Shown piece by piece: positions 2,431 through 32,000 of a stretch of DNA of 32,000 bases. Within the stretch, counting starts at the first letter, position 1. Each line of letters begins with the position of its first letter. The notes beneath the pieces are model-generated. The model saw nothing but the letters and a program-made list of their open reading frames with translations. It had not been told where the DNA came from and did not search any database. The DNA is from Okeania sp. (lineage in GTDB: Bacteria; Cyanobacteriota; Cyanobacteriia; Cyanobacteriales; Microcoleaceae). Location of the stretch: NCBI RefSeq assembly GCF_035285525.1, contig NZ_JAYKGW010000104.1:31898-63897 (forward strand), written 5' to 3'. The translations under genes were made by a program, and so were the position numbers.

Positions 2431-2494
2431 AACCGGGTTTGGAGACCAAATCCAGTTAGATAAAATTTTACAACTTACTTAGGATTGCTATACA
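2431..2494 (+). repeat. about 64-bp MITE-like dispersed repeat, copy 1 (hairpin GGTTTGGAGACCAAA.CC, then TTAGATAAAATTTTACAACTT, then TAGGATTGCTATA)
   Basis: Near-identical copies lie at 2574-2636 and 30524-30584. A partial copy lies at about 26320-26360. Confidence 0.7.
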
Positions 2495-23974: not shown

Positions 23975-26185
23975 ATGCTCATCTGTCCCCAATGTGAGTT
24001 TGAAAATCCTAACAATAATAAATACTGCCAAAAATGCGGTAAATCCTTAACCCACAAGAATTGTTATAAATGTGGGTCAAAAGTCTCCTTGACCGATCTA
24101 CAATGTCACAACTGTGGGGCCGATACGGGTCAAGTATGGAAGGCCATTATTAATAAAACTTTGTCCTTAGAGGCGAGTGCCCATCAAACAGAGATTAATC
24201 TAGAGAAACTAGACCAAGAAGAATTTGTTGTCGAAGAAATTTCCTTAACTAAAGAGTCAGCAGCAGATACCATTGATAATGAAGAAAAAGAGTCTGAAGA
24301 AATCATCAAACTCTCCGAACTTTTTGAGGAGAAAATTAGTACAGAAAAAATTATAGAACCTAGTAAGACTCTAGCTATATCACCTTCAGATATAGAATCC
24401 GTAAATCCTCCATTAGAAACAATAACTGAAGTTGATAATCAAACCCAGGATATAGAAGATTCAGATAATTCAAAATCAACAAATGTGGATATCCTCAGCC
24501 AAATTCCTGAAGTAACAACCACAGAAAATGAATCATCCCTAAATAGTACAGAAAATATTTCAAATATATCAGAAAAATACTTAGATTCTGAAGAACGCTA
24601 CCAATTATTAGAAACTATACCAATAAACAACCAAGAACAAACAATAGTTGTACAAGTATTAGATCTTTATCCACTAGAAAACACCCCAATTAGAGCTTGG
24701 TTGAAAAATAACTCTCAAAAAAGATTTAAACAAAAAACTCCCGAAATGGAAGCCTTAATTGTTCCTATGATTGCCCAACCATACATAAATTTATATAGCC
24801 AAATACCCCAATATTTGCCAGAGATTCATGATAGTTGGCGATCGCCAGATCAAGAAATATTACTTGTAACAGACTATAGCAGTTGGCCAAAATTAGTAGA
24901 TTTCTGGAAAACTGAAGATATCTCCCAACAGCAGATTTTATCATGGTTACAGCAAATTACAGAACTTTGGGTAGTCTTAGCTCCCTGCAATTCTTGTCAA
25001 AGTATAGTAGAATATGACAACCTCCTAGTGAATCAAGCTGAGAATAACTTGATTAAGTTACAACGCTTATACTTAGAACCTGATGAAGAAAAAAATGATA
25101 TTAATAACTTAATGCTATTCTGGCAAGGGCTGTTTGAAAAATCCCAACGTACACACTTTAGTTGGATAACAGATTTATTTCAAGGTTGGCAGAATGGCGA
25201 AATACAAACTATCGAAAAATTGCGATCTTATTTAATGAATACTCAAAACAGTTTACAACCTCAACCAATTTCTAAATCTTCACCGACAACTTTGCAAATA
25301 GATGATTCTGCTTCAAAAGTAGTAGATAATATTGAGACTCAAGATACTCAACTTTTACCAACACAACTAATTAGTTTAGAAAGTTCAGGTAAAACTAATG
25401 TAGGTACTCAACGTGACCATAATGAAGATGCTTTTGGGATTCAAACTCAAATAGAAAGTCAACAAACAACTACCGAAAAAATTATTCAGGCAAAAGGAAT
25501 TTATATACTTTGTGATGGTATGGGAGGGCATGCTAGTGGAGAAATAGCTAGTCAGTTAGGGGTAGACACAATTAAACAATACTTTAACACTGAAGGTAAT
25601 TGGTTCGTAGATATGCCTTCAGAGGAAACAATTCGTACAGCAATTCTCAAAGCAAATGAAGTAATTTACGATATTAACCAGCAAGAAATCCGTTCTGGTA
25701 GTAGTCGTATGGGTACTACTTTAGTTATGGCAATGATTTACGATACAAAATTAGCTGTCGCTCATGTAGGAGATAGTCGTCTGTACCGCTTTTCTCGTAA
25801 GGGAGGTTTAGAACAAATTACTTTAGATCATGAAGTAGGTCAAAGAGAAATCAATCGAGGAATTGAAGCAGAAATAGCTTATGGTCGTCCTGATGCTTAT
25901 CAATTAACTCAAGCTTTAGGACCACGAAATGAAAATTTTGTGAGACCTGATATCCAGTTTTTGAATTTAGATGAGGATAGTCTATTAATTTTAGCATCTG
26001 ATGGTTTAACAGATAATCAGCTTTTGGAAAACAATTGGCAAACTCACCTCGAACCACTTTTAGATAAAAAGGCTGATTTGGAGTTGGGTGTAAATAAGTT
26101 AATTGATTTGGCAAATCAGTATAATGGTCACGATAACATTACAGCAATTGCGATCCGTGCCTTAGTTAAACAGCAACAAGACTAG
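23975..26185 (+). CDS. zinc-ribbon / central domain / PP2C-type Ser/Thr phosphatase
   Basis: 736-aa ORF. Four N-terminal CxxC pairs are present (CPQC..CQKC..CYKC..CHNC), followed by an acidic low-complexity linker. C-terminal PP2C motifs are RDHNEDAF, LCDGMGGHASGE, VAHVGDSRLY, LASDGLTD and DNITAIAI. Confidence 0.85.
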   Translation: MLICPQCEFENPNNNKYCQKCGKSLTHKNCYKCGSKVSLTDLQCHNCGADTGQVWKAIINKTLSLEASAHQTEINLEKLDQEEFVVEEISLTKESAADTIDNEEKESEEIIKLSELFEEKISTEKIIEPSKTLAISPSDIESVNPPLETITEVDNQTQDIEDSDNSKSTNVDILSQIPEVTTTENESSLNSTENISNISEKYLDSEERYQLLETIPINNQEQTIVVQVLDLYPLENTPIRAWLKNNSQKRFKQKTPEMEALIVPMIAQPYINLYSQIPQYLPEIHDSWRSPDQEILLVTDYSSWPKLVDFWKTEDISQQQILSWLQQITELWVVLAPCNSCQSIVEYDNLLVNQAENNLIKLQRLYLEPDEEKNDINNLMLFWQGLFEKSQRTHFSWITDLFQGWQNGEIQTIEKLRSYLMNTQNSLQPQPISKSSPTTLQIDDSASKVVDNIETQDTQLLPTQLISLESSGKTNVGTQRDHNEDAFGIQTQIESQQTTTEKIIQAKGIYILCDGMGGHASGEIASQLGVDTIKQYFNTEGNWFVDMPSEETIRTAILKANEVIYDINQQEIRSGSSRMGTTLVMAMIYDTKLAVAHVGDSRLYRFSRKGGLEQITLDHEVGQREINRGIEAEIAYGRPDAYQLTQALGPRNENFVRPDIQFLNLDEDSLLILASDGLTDNQLLENNWQTHLEPLLDKKADLELGVNKLIDLANQYNGHDNITAIAIRALVKQQQD

Positions 26186-26384
26186 AGCTGCTCTACTGAT
26201 AAAAGAATCAACAGTTAATCATAGCAAGATGCAATAATTGCGTCAAGTTTTTATCACAGTTAATTTCAACTGAAAGCCCTGGAAATTATAACTTATGACT
26301 TCTAAATCCTGACTCTTAACTATCACCAAAATATTATAACTGAAATAGGATTGCTATATTAATTATTAAAACTATCTATAAACT

Positions 26385-27602
26385 GTGATTAGGTTAACCC
26401 TCCTAGACCCTCAAAAAAATACTCCTATAAAAAAATGGGACTTTCAGAGAGAATCAATCATAAAAGTTGGTCGTTCTCCTGACAATCATATTGTTTTATC
26501 TGATACTTTAGTTTCCCGATACCATCTAGAACTACATAGAGTATCAAAATCCGTAAATCTTTGGCGCATAATTAGCCAAGGTACAAATGGAACTTTTGTC
26601 AATGGAATTTTGATGTCTCAGGGAATTGTTTCTGATGGTTCCCTGATACAGTTGGCAAGAAGTGGCCCAATTATCAAATTTCAAGTCCAAACTCCTACTG
26701 CTCCCCAAAACCCCAAAAAATGTTGTCCCCGTGCCGAAGATAACCCTCCAGGAAATTTATTTTGCATCTATTGTGGTCAACCAATTCGGGTTGAACGTAG
26801 TATTCGTCAGTATCAAGTATTGCGGACATTGGGTCAAGGTGGGATGGGTACTACCTATTTAGCATGGGATCGGAAGCAACATAATTTACAGGGTATAGAT
26901 GCTTCCCCTACTGCTTCTCTAGTGGTACTCAAGGAAATGAATGCTGACATGGCTCAAATTATGAAAGCTCAAGAATTATTTGAGCGAGAAGCTAAAGCAC
27001 TAAAATCTTTGAATCATCCCGGTATTCCTAAATTCTTCGACTTTTTTGTGGAAGAAGACAAGAAATATTTGGCAATGGAAATGATTCATGGTCAAGATTT
27101 GGAGAAACGCATTGTTACTCAAGGTCCAATTTTGCCACAACAAGGAATAGAGTGGATGATTCAGACTTGCGAGATTCTAGAATACATTCATTCTCAAGAA
27201 CCTCCACTTATTCATCGGGATATTAAACCTGCTAATCTTCTAATCCGCCGCCGTGATAATCAGATCGTGGTTTTAGATTTTGGAGCAGTCAAAGAAATTG
27301 GAACACCTTTAGGTACACGAATCGGTGCAGAAGGTTATAGCGCTCCCGAACAAGACCGCGGACAACCTTTGACTCAATCTGACTTGTATGCGGTGGGTGC
27401 AACTCTGATTTTTGTGCTGACCAGTCAAAGTCCTATGAAGTTTTATGACAATCGTGGTGATGGTTATCGGTTTCATATTGAAAGCGTTCCCACCATTACA
27501 CCACAACTACGAGAGGTGATTGAAAAAGTTACACAACCACTCCCTAGCGATCGCTATCAAACTGCTCCAGAGTTAGCAGAAGCACTAAAGAATTGTCTGT
27601 AA
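26385..27602 (+). CDS. FHA domain / zinc-ribbon / Hanks-type Ser/Thr protein kinase
   Basis: 405-aa ORF with a GTG start per the track. The FHA domain reads GRSPDNHIVL..SRYHLEL..NGTFVNG. A Cys cluster reads CCPR..CIYCG. Kinase motifs are GQGGMGTTYLA, VVLKEM, HRDIKPANLL, DFGAVK and SAPE. Confidence 0.85.
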   Translation: MIRLTLLDPQKNTPIKKWDFQRESIIKVGRSPDNHIVLSDTLVSRYHLELHRVSKSVNLWRIISQGTNGTFVNGILMSQGIVSDGSLIQLARSGPIIKFQVQTPTAPQNPKKCCPRAEDNPPGNLFCIYCGQPIRVERSIRQYQVLRTLGQGGMGTTYLAWDRKQHNLQGIDASPTASLVVLKEMNADMAQIMKAQELFEREAKALKSLNHPGIPKFFDFFVEEDKKYLAMEMIHGQDLEKRIVTQGPILPQQGIEWMIQTCEILEYIHSQEPPLIHRDIKPANLLIRRRDNQIVVLDFGAVKEIGTPLGTRIGAEGYSAPEQDRGQPLTQSDLYAVGATLIFVLTSQSPMKFYDNRGDGYRFHIESVPTITPQLREVIEKVTQPLPSDRYQTAPELAEALKNCL

Positions 27603-27867
27603 CATTATAGTGTTCTACTTAACTAAAGCAATGGGGGTTTTCGGTTGGGGAAACTCCCAACTGTGATTTATATATAAGAAGATATCACCTCTTAATGTTT
27701 TGATAACAATCCTCTTTTCTGTATCAGATTTTATATTTAACAGCTCGCAGTGTTAATTTTTCTTTTTCCTATCCCGTCTTTGTTTTCTAAATTCAGCAAT
27801 ATCCTGATAAGTATGGTCTTCATTATAAAGAAGAGGTAATAATTATTAATTATTAATTATTATTCAA

Positions 27868-28086
27868 CTAATCTTCTTCCCAAGCTTCTACAGCTAACAG
27901 TTCACTAACTGGATCTTGCATAGAAAAACCAAACTCTTGTAGTTCTTTTTTCCAAAAGTGCCATTTATCACCAAAAAGTAGGGCAATTTTCCAGATACTA
28001 TCTGTTGGCTTGATTATATTAGATTTGACAAGGGAATTCACCTGACGCTGGAACTTGTCCATCGGGTGCATAACCTTTTGGTTCAT
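27868..28086 (-). CDS. small hypothetical protein (72 aa from MNQKV..)
   Basis: I prefer the ATG at 28086 because AGAGG lies about 6 nt upstream on the minus strand. I recognise no motif and coding status is uncertain. Confidence 0.35.
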   Translation of the reverse strand: MNQKVMHPMDKFQRQVNSLVKSNIIKPTDSIWKIALLFGDKWHFWKKELQEFGFSMQDPVSELLAVEAWEED

Positions 28087-28448
28087 AATACCTCTTGATT
28101 TTTTTGAAATTCTGCTTACAGCTACCCCTCTCCTTCTCACTTTTACCGATTTGAGGACTTTTCGTGGCCTTGAGAGAAGTAGTTTGTATTCTTATAATCT
28201 AGAATACTTAGTTTCTTTTGGCAAGACATTATAAGTAAAACTAAATCATTGAAAATGAATGGTGATCTTTGTTTATACTTCCTGGATTTTTATTTGTTTT
28301 GCTACTTGAATAAATTGTATTAATGTGATATACGAATCTTAATTTTGAGGGAATAGAGAATAGAGAATAGGTAAGAATTTCGGAGGTTTTCATTTGCTTT
28401 TTGATTTGTCACAATCAATTAGGAAATAGACCTCTCCAGAAAAAACGA

Positions 28449-28490
28449 AGCAGGGAGCAGGGAGCAGGGAGCAGGGAGCAGGGAGCAGGG
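28449..28490. repeat. STRR heptamer (GCAGGGA)x6
   Basis: Read directly as 42 nt of perfect heptamer repeats. Confidence 0.95.
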
Positions 28491-28726
28491 AGAAATAATT
28501 GATAACTTCTGCACGATAATTGATTTTACTTTTTATTATTGGAGATGCCTAATAGGGAATGGGGAACACTTAACTGGAAGACAGGTCGATTACTTTAACG
28601 TTGCAATGACAACTGTTCAACTGGATTCATATAATATCATGTCCGAATAAACTGATAACCGATAACTGAAATGACCCGGTACATCATTTTTCTGAAATCT
28701 GCTGTATTCAACCGCACATGATATTA

Positions 28727-29785
28727 CTAAAAGTCAGTTAATAGTCTAACCTTTCTGAGAACAAAAGTTAATACAGTTTCCTGAGAATAGATAATATCAG
28801 CTCTTCCTTCCATTCCTGGTTGAATTGGATATTGACGATCACTTTTGACTAAATAAGGTTGTTCAGGTTTTATGATCGCCTCATAATAAGCTTCTTGTAG
28901 CACTTCTGGAGTGATAGCATCTGGAGATATTGAACTGACAGTTCCTTTGAGAATACCATAATCAGGAAAAGGATAAGCTGAAACCCGAATCTGTACAGGT
29001 TGACCGACTTTTACCCTGGCGATATCTGCTGCTGTCACTCTACCTTTAAATACTAAAGGTGCGTTACTGGGAACAATTTGAGCGATCGCTGTTCCTGTTT
29101 CGACAGTTTGTCCAGGATTGCGTAAAAATAACTTAAGTATAGTACCATTTGCCGGGGCGATAATTACACTATGGTCAAGCTTGGTATTTATCTGTTCTAG
29201 TTTTGTGTCACCAACAGTCAATTCTTTAATTAGTTCGGTTCGCTTGACTATTAGATCGCGTCTATCTTTAGCAAACTGTTGAGCAAGTTGAGGTAAAGAT
29301 TGGGATAGTTTTAAAATAGCTGAATCAATAGATGAATCATCTATCTTAGTTGATGGCTGAAAATTCTGAGGTTTAGCAGTAGCTAAAATTTGCACTTCTA
29401 GAGCAGATATTTGTTGATTAATTTGCTCTAGTTCCATATTGCACTGTTTTATTTTTTCTTCCAGTTGACTTTTTTTACGGTTGAGAGTGGATTCATCTAT
29501 GCGTGCGATCGCATCTCCCATCTGAACTACTTGATTTTCACTTACTTCTATACTGTCAACTTTACCCTCTGTTAGGGCTTGAACAATTCTTATATCTCCT
29601 GTTGGTCGAGCAATAGCTTCAGTTCTGACAGTAGGATTATATTTGATTACACTCATTAGAGCAATAGCTGCACTAAATGTTCCTAGTAATAACATTCCCC
29701 CTATTTTATTCCAACGACTCATAGGAGGGAGAAATTCATCACTTTCTAGGGGTTGTAATTCTATAGAATCAGAATTATTAAACAT
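28727..29785 (-). CDS. HlyD-family periplasmic adaptor (membrane fusion protein) of a peptide/protein exporter
   Basis: 352-aa ORF with an N-terminal anchor (IGGMLLLGTFSAAIALMSVI) and a lipoyl-like half-motif (GKVDSIEVSENQVVQMGDAIARID). It also has a coiled coil (LNRKKSQLEEKIKQCNMELEQINQQISALE) and a beta-barrel region (GTILKLFLRNPGQTVETGTAIAQIVP). Confidence 0.8.
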   Translation of the reverse strand: MFNNSDSIELQPLESDEFLPPMSRWNKIGGMLLLGTFSAAIALMSVIKYNPTVRTEAIARPTGDIRIVQALTEGKVDSIEVSENQVVQMGDAIARIDESTLNRKKSQLEEKIKQCNMELEQINQQISALEVQILATAKPQNFQPSTKIDDSSIDSAILKLSQSLPQLAQQFAKDRRDLIVKRTELIKELTVGDTKLEQINTKLDHSVIIAPANGTILKLFLRNPGQTVETGTAIAQIVPSNAPLVFKGRVTAADIARVKVGQPVQIRVSAYPFPDYGILKGTVSSISPDAITPEVLQEAYYEAIIKPEQPYLVKSDRQYPIQPGMEGRADIIYSQETVLTFVLRKVRLLTDF

Positions 29786-30523
29786 AATTAATTTTTACTT
29801 ACTAAAATAATTTTTTTGAGATTAAATTGAGAAATTAATATTATTTGGATTTACGCAGAAACCTGGTTTCTTTGGAGAAATTTTGGGGTTTGAGCAACAA
29901 TATTGCAGTAATAAACCCGATTTATTGGTTGCTTTGCGTAAGTAGTAATTTTGCCTCCAAAAGCAATTTTTAACTTCAGCTTACTAAAAATAAAAGAAAT
30001 AACATAAATAATCCGGAGAAAGTTAAAACTCGTAGATATTAAGGTTAAAGTTAATACTTCACAGAAAATTATCGTGGGAGTTGACAAAAATCCGGATAGT
30101 GCAAATTATTTGGGAATATAAACTAAAATTCCTTGAGGATTTGTAGAAATCAGCAAAGATTATCAATATTTTCTCAAAATTATAGCAATCCTGTTTGAGT
30201 CGTGTATAAGATGTCATTGCTTTTGAGGAATGGTTAAGGGTTATACAAATTCTCATGTATTATTGCTATACTTGAGTAATACTTCAGTCATCAAATAATT
30301 AACACAAACCAAATTATTTTTTGCCAATTTTAGCTAAGTTAATGTGGATTTTTCTGATGTTTACTTCTCCCCCACTCCCTTACTCTCCTACTCCCCTGCT
30401 CAATCAAATGTAGAAAAATTTTTGAGAAATGGTATTAATAGGTAGGAATTTCAGTTTTTTATTTACTTTTTGATTTGTCACAACCTATAACTGTAAGAAA
30501 TGATTTGCGATCAAAAAACTATA

Positions 30524-30584
30524 GGGATTTGGAGAGCAAACCCCTACAATAAAATCTTACAACTTAATTTAGGATTGCTATATA
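30524..30584 (+). repeat. about 64-bp MITE-like dispersed repeat, copy 3, ending in AGGATTGCTATATA just upstream of the first peptide gene
   Basis: GGGATTTGGAGAGCAAACCCCTACAATAAAATCTTACAACTTAATTTAGGATTGCTATATA aligns with 2431-2494 and 2574-2636. Confidence 0.7.
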
Positions 30585-30603
30585 AACTATGAGGGAATTC
30601 ATC

Positions 30604-30819
30604 ATGCAAGAATCTCAACCAAAGCAACTTTTTACAGAATTAAATTTAGAAGAATCTACCAAAATAAATGGTGGTTATAATGAAAATAATCAATATCGCC
30701 TGAATTTTTTAGGGTTTCAACTTTGTCCTCGGAGTTATTACAAATATAACCGTTATTCTCCTGAATATAAACCTTACAGTTCTAATTATTATAAAGGAAA
30801 TATAAAAGGCTATTACTAA
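30604..30819 (+). CDS. double-glycine-leader precursor peptide 1 (24-aa leader + 47-aa Tyr/Asn/Lys/Arg-rich core)
   Basis: The leader MQESQPKQLFTELNLEESTKINGG is paralogous to those of the next two genes. GAGGGA (30591-30596) lies 7 nt upstream of the ATG at 30604. The tracked ORF starts 15 nt earlier, at 30589. Confidence 0.7.
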   Translation: MQESQPKQLFTELNLEESTKINGGYNENNQYRLNFLGFQLCPRSYYKYNRYSPEYKPYSSNYYKGNIKGYY

Positions 30820-31429
30820 AATAATTTCAGTTATTAGTTATCAGTACCTTATTCTCAAACTAAGGGCTTAAAAAACTGAATTATTTTCATCACTTTGAGA
30901 GAAGAAGTTTGAAGATTTATCTATTGGTCATATTTTCATAATTCTTATTTATTTTTATATTTTATGTAGTAGGCTTGAATGGCTATAAAACCCTGCAAAT
31001 GTTGTATAATTTCATCTTTTGGATAAGTTCTAATTTTTTAATTTTCAACAAATCAATCTGAGATTATTCTATTTAAGTAAAAATTATTTAATTCAGTATC
31101 TATCCGGATATTGCTAACTAACCAGGAAGAATAGAACGGTAAGCATTCAGCTATTAGCACCTCACCAGTCAGCTCTTAGTTTTTTTTAATGAATGAAGTA
31201 AGTCAAGCGTTCTTGCAACTTCAACTTCTACTTTTCAACTATATATCTGAGCTTTTAACCCATATAATTTATAGCTGGAAATTATAGATGTTTTTCAGAA
31301 GTGGATAGCTGTTTCGCTACGCGACATGAAAAGCGAAGCTCCTCTGTTTGCGAAGCATTCGGAAGGAAAAGAGGCTAGCTGAGTGCTGAATGCTTACATA
31401 GAATGCAATTAAGTTTGAGGAAAATATCT

Positions 31430-31642
31430 ATGGAAGAAACTCAAAATAGCGAACTATTTTCTAACCTTTCTACTGAAAAATCCGCTACTATTAATGGCGG
31501 TCATTATTACAATAATTACGGTTATGGTCGCTCCGTATATTACTATAATCGTCCTATTATTAACCATCATTATCGTAGTTACAACCACCGTTATAATCGC
31601 CCTATCAGTTATAGCTACCAACGCAATTACAATTGCTACTAA
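31430..31642 (+). CDS. double-glycine-leader precursor peptide 2 (24-aa leader + 46-aa Tyr/Asn/Arg/His-rich core)
   Basis: The leader is MEETQNSELFSNLSTEKSATINGG. GAGGA (31417-31421) lies 8 nt upstream of the ATG at 31430. The tracked ORF starts at 31403. Confidence 0.7.
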   Translation: MEETQNSELFSNLSTEKSATINGGHYYNNYGYGRSVYYYNRPIINHHYRSYNHRYNRPISYSYQRNYNCY

Positions 31643-31923
31643 AAATTAGCAAAAAATATCCTGAAACTTTAACTAAACTCAAGAATAATCTATTAAAAAT
31701 AACGAGATAGTTGAATCAATAAATCCTAAGGATTCAGCACTCAGCGAGCAGCTATTAGCTTTTGTAGTTAACCTATAATTTTCTGTCCTAAAATAATGAA
31801 AAATAGAAGTTAAAACCAAACTCAATTCATTCATTAAAAAGGGCGTTGCTAACGGCTAATTACTAATAGATGGATGCTTAGATAAACTATCTTATTCATT
31901 GAATTAAATCCCAAGCAAAAACG

Positions 31924-32000
31924 ATGCAAGAAACTCAAAATAACGAACTCTTTTCTGATATTTCTACTGAAGAATCTGCTGCTATTAATGGTGGTCATGG
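31924..32000 (+). CDS. double-glycine-leader precursor peptide 3 (5-prime part only, truncated by the window end)
   Basis: It is not in the ORF track because it is cut short. It reads MQETQNNELFSDISTEESAAINGGH.., with the same 24-aa leader pattern and the same His after GG as peptide 2. Confidence 0.6.
   Translation, partial: MQETQNNELFSDISTEESAAINGGH

What the first reader, a model, noticed from the sequence alone, without database searches (positions are those of the whole stretch)
30589..32000. Array of at least three paralogous double-glycine-leader peptide genes beside an HlyD adaptor: candidate undescribed secreted-peptide system
Seen in the sequence: three same-strand small genes (best starts 30604, 31430, 31924) share a 24-aa N-terminal segment. 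The segments read MQESQPKQLFTELNLEESTKINGG, MEETQNSELFSNLSTEKSATINGG and MQETQNNELFSDISTEESAAINGG. Two of them have Shine-Dalgarno-like sites 7-8 nt upstream. The third gene is absent from the ORF track only because the window cuts it, so the array may continue past 32000.

Established knowledge: an acidic leader ending in GG, with hydrophobic residues at -4 (I), -12 (L/I) and -15/-16 (F, L), is the signature of double-glycine leaders. These are removed by C39-peptidase ABC exporters that work with HlyD-type adaptors. An HlyD gene lies divergently 0.8 kb upstream.

Inference: these are exported precursors. The conserved leaders with diverged cores fit a multi-precursor locus. Neither the exporter nor any tailoring enzyme is in the window, so the system is only partly visible here.
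Basis: partly seen in the sequence, partly recalled or inferred. Interest (0 to 1): 0.8.

Follow-up and report, generated by a model that had tools for sequence, protein, structure and literature searches.

The report
Exported tyrosine-rich peptide gene array
Three small neighbouring genes in a marine filamentous cyanobacterium (Okeania) encode peptides with a cleavable export tag and unusually tyrosine- and arginine-rich bodies; the matching gene cluster in Trichodesmium was listed as a putative bacteriocin cluster in 2011, and nobody has tested what the peptides do.

Summary
Three same-strand small genes (pepA 30604-30819, pepB 31430-31642, pepC from 31924, cut by the window end) share a 24-residue acidic leader ending in INGG. 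They lie 0.8 kb from a divergent HlyD-family gene (28727-29785).

- About 30 related loci (Trichodesmium, Okeania, Dapis, other Microcoleaceae) keep the layout HlyD | 3-6 peptide genes | C39-peptidase ABC exporter.
- dN/dS is 0.2-0.5 in both leaders and cores, so the genes are coding.
- In the window's own assembly, full-length pepC and the exporter sit on a separate 7.6-kb contig. The exporter's residues align with the PCAT1 catalytic positions.
- No tailoring enzyme is conserved next to the array.

The system is not undescribed. Wang, Fewer and Sivonen (2011) list the four T. erythraeum orthologues (CDS31-33, Tery_0624) as group III putative bacteriocin precursors.

What has not been described is the core chemistry. 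Cores are 26-35% Tyr and rich in Arg, Gly, Ser or Asn. They are cationic and very hydrophilic, mostly end in Cys-Tyr, and match no curated family. A wider family occurs in other filamentous cyanobacteria.

Function is untested. I lean towards extracellular matrix or adhesion peptides (as for EbfG) over classical bacteriocins. Verdict: new member of a known kind, moderate interest.

The parts
28727..29785 (-). HlyD-family membrane-fusion (periplasmic adaptor) gene, 352 aa, divergent from the peptide array
   Evidence: Pfam HlyD_3, HlyD_D23 and Biotin_lipoyl_2 score above their thresholds. TIGR01843 gives 1.8e-46 but is below its cut-off. Orthologues at 74-86% identity sit in the same position in 28 loci.
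30005..30183 (+). Conserved non-coding block upstream of pepA. It holds a sigma-70-like promoter (TTGACA 30081-30086, 17 nt, AATTAT 30104-30109) and the start of the 5' leader.
   Evidence: The block is 76-83% identical across Dapis, Okeania and Trichodesmium. The promoter scan gives 10 of 12 matches. No conserved RNA structure was found.
30184..30580 (.). Insertion of about 397 bp of dispersed-repeat (MITE-like) DNA, specific to this genome, between the conserved promoter block and the pepA ribosome-binding site
   Evidence: It is absent from four relatives in three genera (alignment). Parts of it recur in other loci and at window 2437-2492.
30604..30819 (+). pepA, 71 aa. Leader 30604-30675 (MQESQPKQLFTELNLEESTKINGG); 47-aa core 30676-30816 (YNENNQY...NYYKGNIKGYY; 12 Tyr, 1 Cys, pI 9.4); SD-like GAGGGA at 30591-30596.
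   Evidence: Identical to P0001 / MEB3341039.1. Orthologues are 69-86% identical. Core dN/dS is 0.22.
31430..31642 (+). pepB, 70 aa. Leader 31430-31501 (MEETQNSELFSNLSTEKSATINGG); 46-aa core 31502-31639 (HYYNNYGYGRSVYYY...QRNYNCY; 14 Tyr, 6 Arg, C-terminal Cys-Tyr); SD-like GAGGAA at 31417-31422.
   Evidence: Identical to P0013 / MEB3341040.1. Orthologue class B has core dN/dS of 0.21.
31651..31724 (+). Conserved non-coding block after pepB. In relatives it lies just upstream of pepC; in the window it is separated from pepC by a small insertion (31725-31882).
   Evidence: The block is 86-89% identical to Dapis and Okeania loci. The inverted-repeat arm 31727-31756 pairs with 31367-31396.
31924..32000 (+). 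pepC, 5' part only. Leader 31924-31995 (MQETQNNELFSDISTEESAAINGG) plus the first core codons. The full product in the same assembly is 76 aa (core HGCGCDGYSRSVSY...RPGGCY; 3 Cys, 13 Tyr, 10 Gly).
   Evidence: P0035 / MEB3343202.1 begins with the same 26 residues and lies next to the C39-ABC exporter P0051 / MEB3343201.1 on a 7,576-bp contig. The pepB and pepC leaders form an 82-nt repeat at 84% identity.

Best explanation
This is the left part of a vertically inherited export cassette: HlyD adaptor | 3-6 precursor genes | C39-peptidase ABC exporter (PCAT).

**Proposed mechanism**
1. Each gene makes a precursor of about 70 aa. It has an acidic 24-aa leader and a basic core of 46-52 aa.
2. The C39 domain of the exporter binds the leader and cuts after Gly-Gly.
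3. The ABC pump, the HlyD adaptor and an outer-membrane channel encoded elsewhere carry the core out of the cell.
4. No enzyme-made modification is expected. At most, disulfides form through the conserved Cys residues.

**What is shown and what is inferred**
- Genes, linkage, purifying selection and conservation of the exporter's catalytic positions are shown here.
- Cleavage and export are inferred from the PCAT, microcin and EbfG literature. I put this part at about 0.9.

**Role after export**
- This is untested.
- My lean is that the Tyr/Arg/Gly-rich, very hydrophilic, cationic peptides are extracellular self-associating or adhesive matrix components. They would be shared goods of these colony- and mat-forming filaments, as shown for the GG-motif proteins EbfG1-4 and their exporter PteB in Synechococcus elongatus.
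- I favour this over membrane-active bacteriocins.
- The stated confidence refers to this full statement, including the matrix role.
For: **Architecture**
- HlyD and a 736-aa Peptidase_C39 + ABC_membrane + ABC_tran gene are the only genes found beside the arrays in 28 loci each.
- The same layout recurs in distant Leptolyngbyaceae loci L043-L045.

**Exporter**
- It is present in the same assembly, next to pepC.
- The best solved relative is PCAT1, 4RY2 (E = 3e-109). Gln30, Cys36, His112 and Asp128 align with the PCAT1 residues I recall from the literature as its catalytic positions.

**Coding status**
- dN/dS is 0.17-0.53 for leaders and cores of all four paralogue classes.

**No tailoring**
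- No enzyme family is conserved in 10-kb flanks.

**Against pore-forming toxins and for a matrix or adhesion role**
- Cores are 26-35% Tyr, 11-29% Arg and up to 29% Gly.
- Aliphatic residues make up 7% or less. GRAVY is -0.8 to -2.2. Net charge is +3 to +10.
- AlphaFold gives no confident fold for pepA (pLDDT 50).
- No conserved third gene could serve as an immunity gene. Intergenic DNA is not conserved apart from short blocks upstream of the peptide genes.
- The four paralogue classes are kept as stable orthologous sets across genera. The locus is syntenic with RecJ, PP2C and FHA-kinase genes. This looks like a core trait rather than a strain-variable weapon.

**Precedent**
- EbfG1-4 carry GG motifs, need the PteB C39 cysteine for secretion and enable biofilm formation (PMC4997328).
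- EbfG1-3 form amyloid, and EbfG4 is found on the cell surface and in the matrix (PMC9981879).
Against: - There is no expression, secretion or activity data for any member. No paper mentions Tery_0624 or its neighbours.
- Cationic, Cys-containing peptides of 5-6 kDa are also what many antimicrobial peptides look like.
- A GG-leader array beside PCAT and HlyD genes is the classical microcin / class II bacteriocin layout.
- The parallels with adhesive and phase-separating proteins rest on composition only. They come from my own knowledge of mussel foot proteins and Tyr/Arg 'sticker' sequences, and were not tested here.
- Homology to EbfG was not tested.
- Leader position -7 is Ser, not the consensus Leu/Ile.
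- No curated double-glycine-leader model matches these leaders.
Confidence: 0.4

Rival explanations
1. Classical antimicrobial peptides: unmodified microcin or class II bacteriocin-like, or broad cationic antimicrobial peptides. After the same PCAT/HlyD export, the cationic Tyr/Arg/Gly-rich cores would kill or inhibit competing bacteria, fungi or grazers.
For: - The architecture is that of microcin and bacteriocin loci.
- The T. erythraeum orthologues were filed as putative bacteriocin precursors (PMC3140520).
- Cores are small, strongly cationic and contain conserved Cys residues.
- Class C genes vary in copy number, from 1 to 3.
- Gly/Tyr/Arg-rich antimicrobial peptides exist in animals (my own knowledge).
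Against: - No conserved candidate immunity gene lies in or next to the array.
- Cores are extremely hydrophilic and have almost no aliphatic residues. Known class II bacteriocins and microcins are not like this (my own knowledge).
- Paralogue classes are under purifying selection and stable across genera, not diversifying.
- The locus is syntenic and looks vertically inherited.
Confidence: 0.3
2. Precursors of modified peptides (RiPPs) whose tailoring enzyme is encoded elsewhere or only sometimes nearby. Candidate modifications are Tyr or Ser O-sulfation by the TPR-sulfotransferase found downstream of the exporter in Trichodesmium (compare RaxX/RaxST/RaxA/RaxB), Tyr cross-linking, or hydroxylation.
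For: - A large TPR + Sulfotransfer_2 ORF lies directly downstream of the C39-ABC gene, on the same strand, in T. erythraeum (L021 13231-19410) and in Trichodesmium sp. L018. A fragment is present in L035.
- RaxX is a GG-leader peptide that is Tyr-sulfated and exported by a PCAT with an adaptor (PMC6637879; 10.1101/442517).
- Cores carry repeated R-[PS]-[VI]-x-Y motifs, 1-3 per class B or C core, and a conserved C-terminal Cys-Tyr. Either could be a recognition site.
Against: - The sulfotransferase is missing or degraded in most loci. Neighbours there are HEAT-repeat, toxin-antitoxin or ClpB-type genes.
- Its domain is the carbohydrate-type Pfam family, not the TPST/RaxST type. That family assignment is from my own knowledge; only the Pfam hit was computed here.
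- No radical SAM, P450, LanM, cyclodehydratase or similar gene was seen in any flank.
- Tyr residues are flanked by basic residues, not acidic ones.
Confidence: 0.12
3. Diffusible signals (pheromone-like, as for ComC/ComAB) or metal- or mineral-binding peptides, sensed or used by the filaments. The neighbouring FHA-Ser/Thr kinase and PP2C phosphatase might be linked to this.
For: - PCAT plus adaptor systems export peptide pheromones in Gram-positive bacteria. ComA is among the solved relatives.
- Kinase and PP2C genes are syntenic with HlyD in 10-15 loci. A kinase also sits next to HlyD in distant loci L043-L045.
- Tyr/His/Cys-rich sequences can bind metals (my own knowledge).
Against: - Cores of 46-60 aa with low-complexity composition, in four parallel classes, are unlike known pheromones.
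- The kinase has no extracellular sensor domain by Pfam.
- The kinase and PP2C linkage is lost in the split-locus Okeania genomes.
- Ser/Thr kinases are numerous in cyanobacteria, so adjacency can arise by chance.
Confidence: 0.08

Closest known systems
Group III putative bacteriocin gene cluster of Trichodesmium erythraeum IMS101 (Wang, Fewer and Sivonen 2011, PLoS One 6:e22384; precursors CDS31, CDS32, CDS33, Tery_0624)
   Same: - It is orthologous.
- HlyD is 79% identical. The exporter is about 88% identical to those of relatives.
- The order is the same: HlyD | peptide genes | short-type C39-ABC.
- The peptide coordinates in Table S3 coincide with the class A, D, B and C genes found in L021.
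   Different: - The window lacks the class D gene.
- It carries three small repeat insertions in the intergenic regions.
- Its assembly breaks inside pepC.
- The 2011 paper only catalogued the ORFs, under the family label 'Other'. It did not describe the Tyr/Arg-rich core family and tested nothing.
EbfG1-4 / PteB system of Synechococcus elongatus PCC 7942 (Parnasa et al. 2016; Frenkel et al. 2023)
   Same: - It is a tandem array of four small GG-motif proteins beside a C39-peptidase ABC transporter and an HlyD-family gene.
- There are no tailoring enzymes.
- The products are secreted.
- Mature N-termini are Tyr-rich (TTYNPPSYPYPSYPK, SGYSIPTYPK).
   Different: - Sequence relatedness was not tested here.
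- In the descriptions read here, the EbfG amyloid hotspots contain hydrophobic residues (A-Phi-N-I-Pi). The present cores are Arg/Tyr/Gly-rich and nearly free of aliphatic residues.
- A biofilm role is shown for EbfG and only inferred here.
Class II microcins and class II bacteriocins with their PCAT exporters (CvaAB-TolC for colicin V; PCAT1; ComAB)
   Same: - A double-glycine leader of about 24 aa.
- A C39-ABC exporter whose Cys/His/Asp positions match PCAT1.
- An HlyD-type adaptor.
- Several precursor genes in tandem.
   Different: - No conserved immunity gene.
- Cores are hydrophilic, low-complexity and Tyr/Arg-rich.
- The leader has Ser at -7.
- The leaders match no curated leader model.
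RaxX-RaxSTAB of Xanthomonas oryzae (sulfated-tyrosine peptide exported by a PCAT and adaptor)
   Same: - A GG-leader precursor of about 60 aa with functionally important Tyr.
- A PCAT (RaxB) and a periplasmic adaptor (RaxA).
- A sulfotransferase gene lies next to the exporter in T. erythraeum and one other Trichodesmium locus.
   Different: - The sulfotransferase is of a different Pfam family, is fused to TPR repeats, and is absent or degraded in most loci.
- No sulfotransferase gene was seen beside the exporter in the short contig recovered for this Okeania (L041).
- The system has many Tyr-rich paralogues rather than one hormone mimic.

Membership tests
Double-glycine-leader (PCAT substrate) peptides | N-terminal leader of about 15-30 aa ending in Gly-Gly (or Gly-Ala/Ser) immediately before the core | tested here: met
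   Leaders are 24 aa and end in INGG in all three window genes. The [IVL][NDS]GG ending is kept in 89 distinct homologues.
Double-glycine-leader (PCAT substrate) peptides | Consensus leader pattern: hydrophobic at -4, -7, -12 and -15, acidic at -8 or -9 | tested here: inconclusive
   Positions -4 (I), -12 (L/I), -15 (F) and -8/-9 (E/K, E) fit. Position -7 is Ser, not Leu/Ile (read from the sequence). No NCBIfam or Pfam leader model matches. The only hit is a weak one to the sublancin-family model TIGR04196, E = 0.11.
Double-glycine-leader (PCAT substrate) peptides | Genetic linkage to a C39-peptidase ABC transporter | tested here: met
   The exporter directly follows the last peptide gene in 20 or more loci. 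In the window's own assembly it is adjacent to pepC.
Double-glycine-leader (PCAT substrate) peptides | Leader removed after Gly-Gly during export | not testable with these tools
   This needs mass spectrometry of secreted peptides or an in vitro C39 assay.
Peptidase-containing ABC transporter (PCAT, MEROPS C39) | Domain order Peptidase_C39 - ABC_membrane - ABC_tran with catalytic Cys, His and Asp (not a C39-like domain lacking the Cys, as in HlyB) | tested here: met
   P0051 (from the same assembly, outside the window) carries PF03412, PF00664 and PF00005. Gln30, Cys36, His112 and Asp128 align with the PCAT1 (4RY2) active-site positions, E = 3e-109. The PCAT1 residue numbers are from my own knowledge.
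HlyD-family membrane-fusion protein | HlyD barrel-sandwich, lipoyl and beta-barrel domains with an N-terminal membrane anchor | tested here: met
   HlyD_3, HlyD_D23 and Biotin_lipoyl_2 score above Pfam thresholds. A hydrophobic stretch lies at about residues 29-49. The type I HlyD subfamily model TIGR01843 scores 159 bits, below its 208.65 cut-off. So this is a family-level member only.
Cyanobacterial group III bacteriocin-like cluster (Wang et al. 2011) | Short-type C39-ABC (no CAP_ED extension) plus HlyD plus GG precursors, without LanM and without a second peptidase-less ABC transporter | tested here: met
   The exporter is 736 aa with no extra N-terminal domain. No LanM or second ABC transporter was seen in the flanks. 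The T. erythraeum orthologues are labelled group III in Table S3. Group definitions are given.
Class II microcin / class II bacteriocin | Dedicated immunity gene in the cluster | tested here: not met
   Only HlyD and the exporter recur across loci. Spacers between peptide genes are not conserved, except for short blocks upstream of the genes.
Class II microcin / class II bacteriocin | Antibacterial activity of the mature peptide | not testable with these tools
   This needs an activity assay.
NHLP / Nif11-type leader peptide families | Match to the long NHLP or Nif11 leader domains | tested here: not met
   There are no NCBIfam or Pfam hits up to E = 10. The leaders are only 24 aa.
EbfG-type biofilm matrix proteins | Sequence homology to EbfG1-4; amyloid formation; requirement for biofilm | not tested
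Only the architecture and the GG motif are comparable.
RaxX-type sulfated peptides | Tyrosylprotein sulfotransferase encoded in the cluster | tested here: not met
   A Sulfotransfer_2 domain fused to TPR repeats occurs in L021 and L018, with a fragment in L035. It is absent from the other loci and was not seen beside the exporter in this Okeania's short contig L041.

The most novel reading that the evidence does not exclude
The peptides would be a new functional class of PCAT cargo: short, secreted 'sticker' peptides rich in Tyr and Arg.

**Composition parallels**
- They resemble mussel foot proteins 3 and 5, or Tyr/Arg phase-separating sequences.
- A conserved C-terminal Cys-Tyr and N-terminal Cys residues could provide disulfide links.

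**Proposed role**
- They would coacervate or glue filaments, sheath polysaccharide or mineral particles together.
- This would contribute to colony formation (and perhaps dust capture) in Trichodesmium, and to mat formation in Okeania and Dapis.
- A wider family with the same leader exists in other filamentous cyanobacteria (Symploca, Zarconia, Kovacikia, Leptolyngbyaceae).
Probability: 0.25. Interest if true: 0.7.

Novelty: new member of a known kind. Interest (0 to 1): 0.4.

Why it matters
Trichodesmium and its relatives are globally important nitrogen fixers and bloom or mat formers, and their colony formation has no known molecular basis.

- This cassette is conserved across the whole Trichodesmium, Okeania and Dapis group and sits in a stable chromosomal neighbourhood.
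- It exports peptides whose chemistry does not fit classical bacteriocins.
- If they are matrix or adhesion peptides, this would extend the EbfG precedent from a unicellular model to ecologically dominant filamentous cyanobacteria. It would also give a concrete genetic handle on aggregation.
- If they are antimicrobials, they would be an unusual Tyr/Arg-rich class.
- Either way, the practical result is that the locus is real, complete in this genome and catalogued since 2011 but never studied. The core family also lacks a curated model.

Tried and rejected
**Database and structure searches that found nothing useful**
- Pfam and NCBIfam scans of the peptides gave no family.
- An Rfam scan of 27600-32000 gave only a sub-threshold chance hit.
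- AlphaFold2 of pepA with 18 orthologues gave pLDDT 50 and no fold, so no fold search was run.
- A PDB sequence search with the sulfotransferase domain found no informative relative.
- Literature searches for Tery_0622-0625, for tyrosine-rich GG peptides and for Trichodesmium secreted peptides found nothing specific.

**Attempts to extend the window**
- Exact look-ups of P0001, P0013 and P0035 had no contig on record.
- The exporter look-up returned only a 2.7-kb read-assembly contig that starts in a dispersed repeat.
- Linkage of pepC and the exporter in this genome therefore rests on consecutive accessions and a shared contig length.

**Ideas tested and dropped**
- A conserved RNA structure in the pepA 5' leader: RNAalifold on 21 sequences gave -1.8 kcal/mol and no covariation. 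The conservation looks like a promoter plus a ribosome-binding site.
- A hidden immunity or tailoring gene in the spacers or flanks: none is conserved.
- The upstream ATG at 30589 as the true pepA start: rejected, because two relatives lack it.
- Chance ORFs: rejected on conservation and dN/dS.
Full report
**1. What is in the window**

- Positions 30589-32000 hold three + strand small genes:
  - pepA runs 30604-30819 (71 aa).
  - pepB runs 31430-31642 (70 aa).
  - pepC starts at 31924 and is cut by the window end.
They end in I-N-G-G, with hydrophobic residues at -4, -12 and -15/-16. Position -7 is Ser, where the classical consensus has Leu/Ile.
- Shine-Dalgarno-like GAGGGA (30591-30596) and GAGGAA (31417-31422) each lie 7 nt before their ATG. 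pepC has no such site.
- The alternative pepA start at 30589 is part of the conserved ribosome-binding region. Two relatives lack it, so 30604 is the real start.
- The pepB and pepC leaders form an 82-nt direct repeat, 84% identical.
- A divergent HlyD-family gene lies at 28727-29785. It scores above threshold for Pfam HlyD_3, HlyD_D23 and Biotin_lipoyl_2. TIGR01843 gives 1.8e-46 but is below its cut-off.
- Further left lie an FHA-Ser/Thr kinase, a PP2C phosphatase and RecJ.

**2. Source and the missing right-hand part**

- pepA and pepB are identical to MEB3341039.1 and MEB3341040.1 of an Okeania sp. metagenome-assembled genome (contig of 63,897 bp).
- The full-length third peptide is P0035 (76 aa, MEB3343202.1). 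It begins with the same 26 residues as the cut gene.
- P0035 and a 736-aa 'peptidase domain-containing ABC transporter' (P0051, MEB3343201.1) have consecutive accessions on one 7,576-bp contig of the same assembly.
- Most likely the assembly broke inside the repeated leader. This is an inference, as I could not fetch that contig.
- P0051 carries Peptidase_C39, ABC_membrane and ABC_tran domains. Its best solved relative is PCAT1 (4RY2, E = 3e-109).
- Gln30, Cys36, His112 and Asp128 of P0051 align with the PCAT1 oxyanion Gln and catalytic Cys21, His99 and Asp115. The PCAT1 residue numbers are from my own knowledge.

**3. Conservation**

- A profile of the three peptides finds 36 homologues, all annotated 'hypothetical'. 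All come from Okeania, Trichodesmium, Dapis or unnamed Microcoleaceae.
- A scan of species-representative genomes returned 34 loci.
- A motif script found about 100 leader-bearing ORFs in them, 89 of them distinct.
- They fall into four orthologous classes:

| Class | Core | Typical sequence | Notes |
|---|---|---|---|
| A | 47 aa | YNENxQYRRSFLGFQLCPRSYY...NYYKGNxxGYY | one Cys |
| D | 31-43 aa | HGYYGRR...RPVRYYSRRRYY..CY | absent from the window |
| B | about 46 aa | HYYDDCYGYGRPVRYYRRPVSYHYRSY...DCY | |
| C | 51-60 aa | HGCGCDGYGYGRSVSY...RRGGCY | 1-3 copies per locus |

- tblastn shows the common layout HlyD(-) | A, D, B, C(+) | C39-ABC(+). T. erythraeum IMS101 (L021) has it too.
- Several Okeania genomes have the cassette split between two sites. 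One holds HlyD + A + D + B, the other C + ABC.
- Pooled pairwise dN/dS is 0.17-0.53 for both leaders and cores in every class. These are genuine protein-coding genes under purifying selection.
- The only defective copy seen is a truncated chimera in L027.

**4. Nothing else belongs to the cassette**

- I clustered all ORFs of 90 aa or more from the flanks. Only HlyD and the exporter recur widely (28 loci each).
- Next come the kinase (15 loci) and PP2C (10 loci), which reflect local synteny. After that come unrelated genes: glycogen phosphorylase, a HEAT-repeat protein, toxin-antitoxin pairs, a CobN-family chelatase subunit and a Clp-type ATPase.
- No radical SAM, P450, LanM, cyclodehydratase or protease gene is conserved.
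- There is one lead. A large TPR + Sulfotransfer_2 ORF lies directly downstream of the exporter in T. erythraeum and in one other Trichodesmium locus, with a fragment in L035. It is absent or decayed elsewhere.
- Spacers between the peptide genes are not conserved apart from short blocks just upstream of each gene. No hidden immunity gene is evident.

**5. Peptide chemistry**

- Leaders are acidic (net -2 to -5) and cores are basic (+3 to +10 at pH 8).
- Cores are 26-35% Tyr, 11-29% Arg and up to 29% Gly, plus Ser, Asn and His. Aliphatic residues make up 7% or less, and GRAVY is -0.8 to -2.2.
- The window's mature peptides would be 5.9-6.1 kDa with pI 8.8-9.6.
- Classes B, C and D nearly always end in Cys-Tyr. 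Class C starts G-C-G-C, and many class B cores have a Cys near the N-terminus. Disulfide closure or disulfide-linked oligomers are therefore plausible (inference).
- The window's pepB has lost that N-terminal Cys.
- Class B and C cores carry 1-3 copies of an R-[PS]-[VI]-x-Y motif.
- AlphaFold2 with 18 orthologues gives no confident fold for pepA (pLDDT 50).
- No Pfam or NCBIfam model matches the peptides.

**6. A wider family**

- A profile search of 1.84 billion representative proteins finds 44 clusters at E <= 1e-3.
- Nearly all are 54-100-aa peptides with the leader pattern xLF(T/S)(E/D)(L/I)xxEESAx(I/V)NGG. Their cores are again Tyr/Arg/Gly/His-rich and often end in Cys-Tyr.
- Named sources are Symploca, Zarconia, Kovacikia and Leptolyngbyaceae. 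All are annotated 'hypothetical', and the genes often sit in tandem.
- One such locus set (L043-L045) shows the same HlyD | peptides | C39-ABC layout.

**7. What is already known**

- Wang, Fewer and Sivonen (2011, PMC3140520) mined 58 cyanobacterial genomes for C39-ABC/HlyD clusters and double-glycine precursors.
- Their Table S3 lists four group III precursors for T. erythraeum IMS101: CDS31 (1014731-1014961), CDS32 (1017160-1017384), CDS33 (1017591-1017803) and Tery_0624 (1017941-1018180).
- These coordinates coincide with the class A, D, B and C genes I found in L021 (NC_008312 1007591-1027722).
- Group III is defined by a short-type C39-ABC plus HlyD.
- So the orthologous cluster has been catalogued. 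It was filed under the family label 'Other' and was never characterised.
- No paper in the library mentions these locus tags or tyrosine-rich GG peptides.

**8. Mechanism**

- Shown here: genes, leaders, linkage to HlyD and to an exporter whose catalytic positions are conserved, purifying selection, and absence of conserved tailoring or immunity genes.
- Inferred from the PCAT, microcin and EbfG literature:
  1. The C39 domain binds the leader and cleaves after Gly-Gly.
  2. The ABC pump, the adaptor and an unlinked outer-membrane channel export the core.
- I hold this part at about 0.9.
- What the cores do outside the cell is open.
- I lean to extracellular matrix or adhesion peptides (0.4), for these reasons:
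  - The only functionally tested unmodified GG-motif proteins of cyanobacteria, EbfG1-4 with PteB, are biofilm matrix and cell-surface components (PMC4997328, PMC9981879).
  - The cassette behaves as a vertically inherited core locus of colony- and mat-forming filaments.
  - The four classes are kept as a set.
  - There is no immunity gene.
  - The cores are far too hydrophilic for membrane-inserting bacteriocins. Their composition recalls Tyr/Arg-rich adhesive or phase-separating sequences (my own knowledge, not tested).
- Rivals:
  - Cationic antimicrobial peptides (0.3).
  - RiPPs modified by a remote or occasional enzyme such as the Trichodesmium TPR-sulfotransferase, by analogy with RaxX/RaxSTAB (0.12; PMC6637879, 10.1101/442517).
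  - Signals or metal binders (0.08).

**9. Verdict**

- The claim of an undescribed system is not supported.
- It is a new member of a known kind (cyanobacterial group III GG-peptide export cluster). Its cargo family is uncharacterised and compositionally unusual, and that is what deserves experiments.
- Interest is 0.4.

Noticed in passing
window 30184-30580: About 397 bp is inserted between the conserved pepA promoter / 5' block (30005-30183) and the pepA ribosome-binding site. Dapis, Okeania SIO3I5 and T. erythraeum lack it. Parts of it recur at window 2437-2492 and in other loci, so it looks like a dispersed repeat or MITE. It may alter pepA expression in this genome.
   Followed up: partly
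window 31143-31401 and 31725-31882: Two further small insertions relative to Dapis L016 (about 225 bp and 150 bp). They carry mutually complementary arms (31139-31158 / 31378-31397; 31367-31396 / 31727-31756) and flank pepB. They probably belong to the same short repeat family.
   Followed up: partly
window 31070-31142 and 31402-31429, compared with L016 9460-9669: The window has no class D peptide gene. The conserved block upstream of the window's pepB matches the block upstream of class D in Dapis. This suggests class D was lost by recombination between the repeated leaders. Two Trichodesmium assemblies (L007, L009) also lack class D.
   Followed up: partly
all loci (leaders of classes B and C): Synonymous divergence is much lower in the leaders than in the cores (dS 0.18-0.25 against 0.44-0.70). 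The window's pepC leader is closer to the Dapis pepB leader than the window's pepB gene as a whole is to Dapis pepB. This points to gene conversion or nucleotide-level constraint on the leaders.
   Followed up: no
window 23975-27602; L002, L007-L011, L014, L016, L017, L021, L026, L039; L043-L045: An FHA-Ser/Thr kinase and a zinc-ribbon PP2C phosphatase (with RecJ) are syntenic with the HlyD gene in 10-15 loci. A Ser/Thr kinase also sits beside HlyD in distant Leptolyngbyaceae loci. This may be regulation or plain synteny.
   Followed up: partly
L021 13231-19410; L018 10754-13849; L035 8413-9156: A giant TPR-repeat protein with a C-terminal Sulfotransfer_2 domain lies directly downstream of the C39-ABC exporter, on the same strand, in T. 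erythraeum IMS101 and another Trichodesmium. It is fragmented in Okeania SIO2F4 and absent elsewhere.
   Followed up: partly
L001, L010, L019, L020, L022, L023 versus L025, L028-L032, L034: In several Okeania genomes the cassette is split into two distant loci. HlyD + classes A, D and B lie next to glycogen phosphorylase. Class C + the exporter lie elsewhere.
   Followed up: partly
window 28449-28497: Tandem 7-nt repeat (AGCAGGG, about 6 units) in the spacer between the kinase gene and HlyD.
   Followed up: no
L027 10001-10150: A truncated 49-aa chimera with a class D-like leader fused to the start of a class B core. It lies at a third site in Okeania SIO2C9 and is probably a pseudogene left by recombination.
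   Followed up: no
L036 (contig labelled Actinomycetota MAG): A cassette with cyanobacterial-type HlyD (58% identical), peptide and exporter (68% identical) sits on a contig binned as Actinomycetota. It is probably mis-binned cyanobacterial DNA.
   Followed up: no
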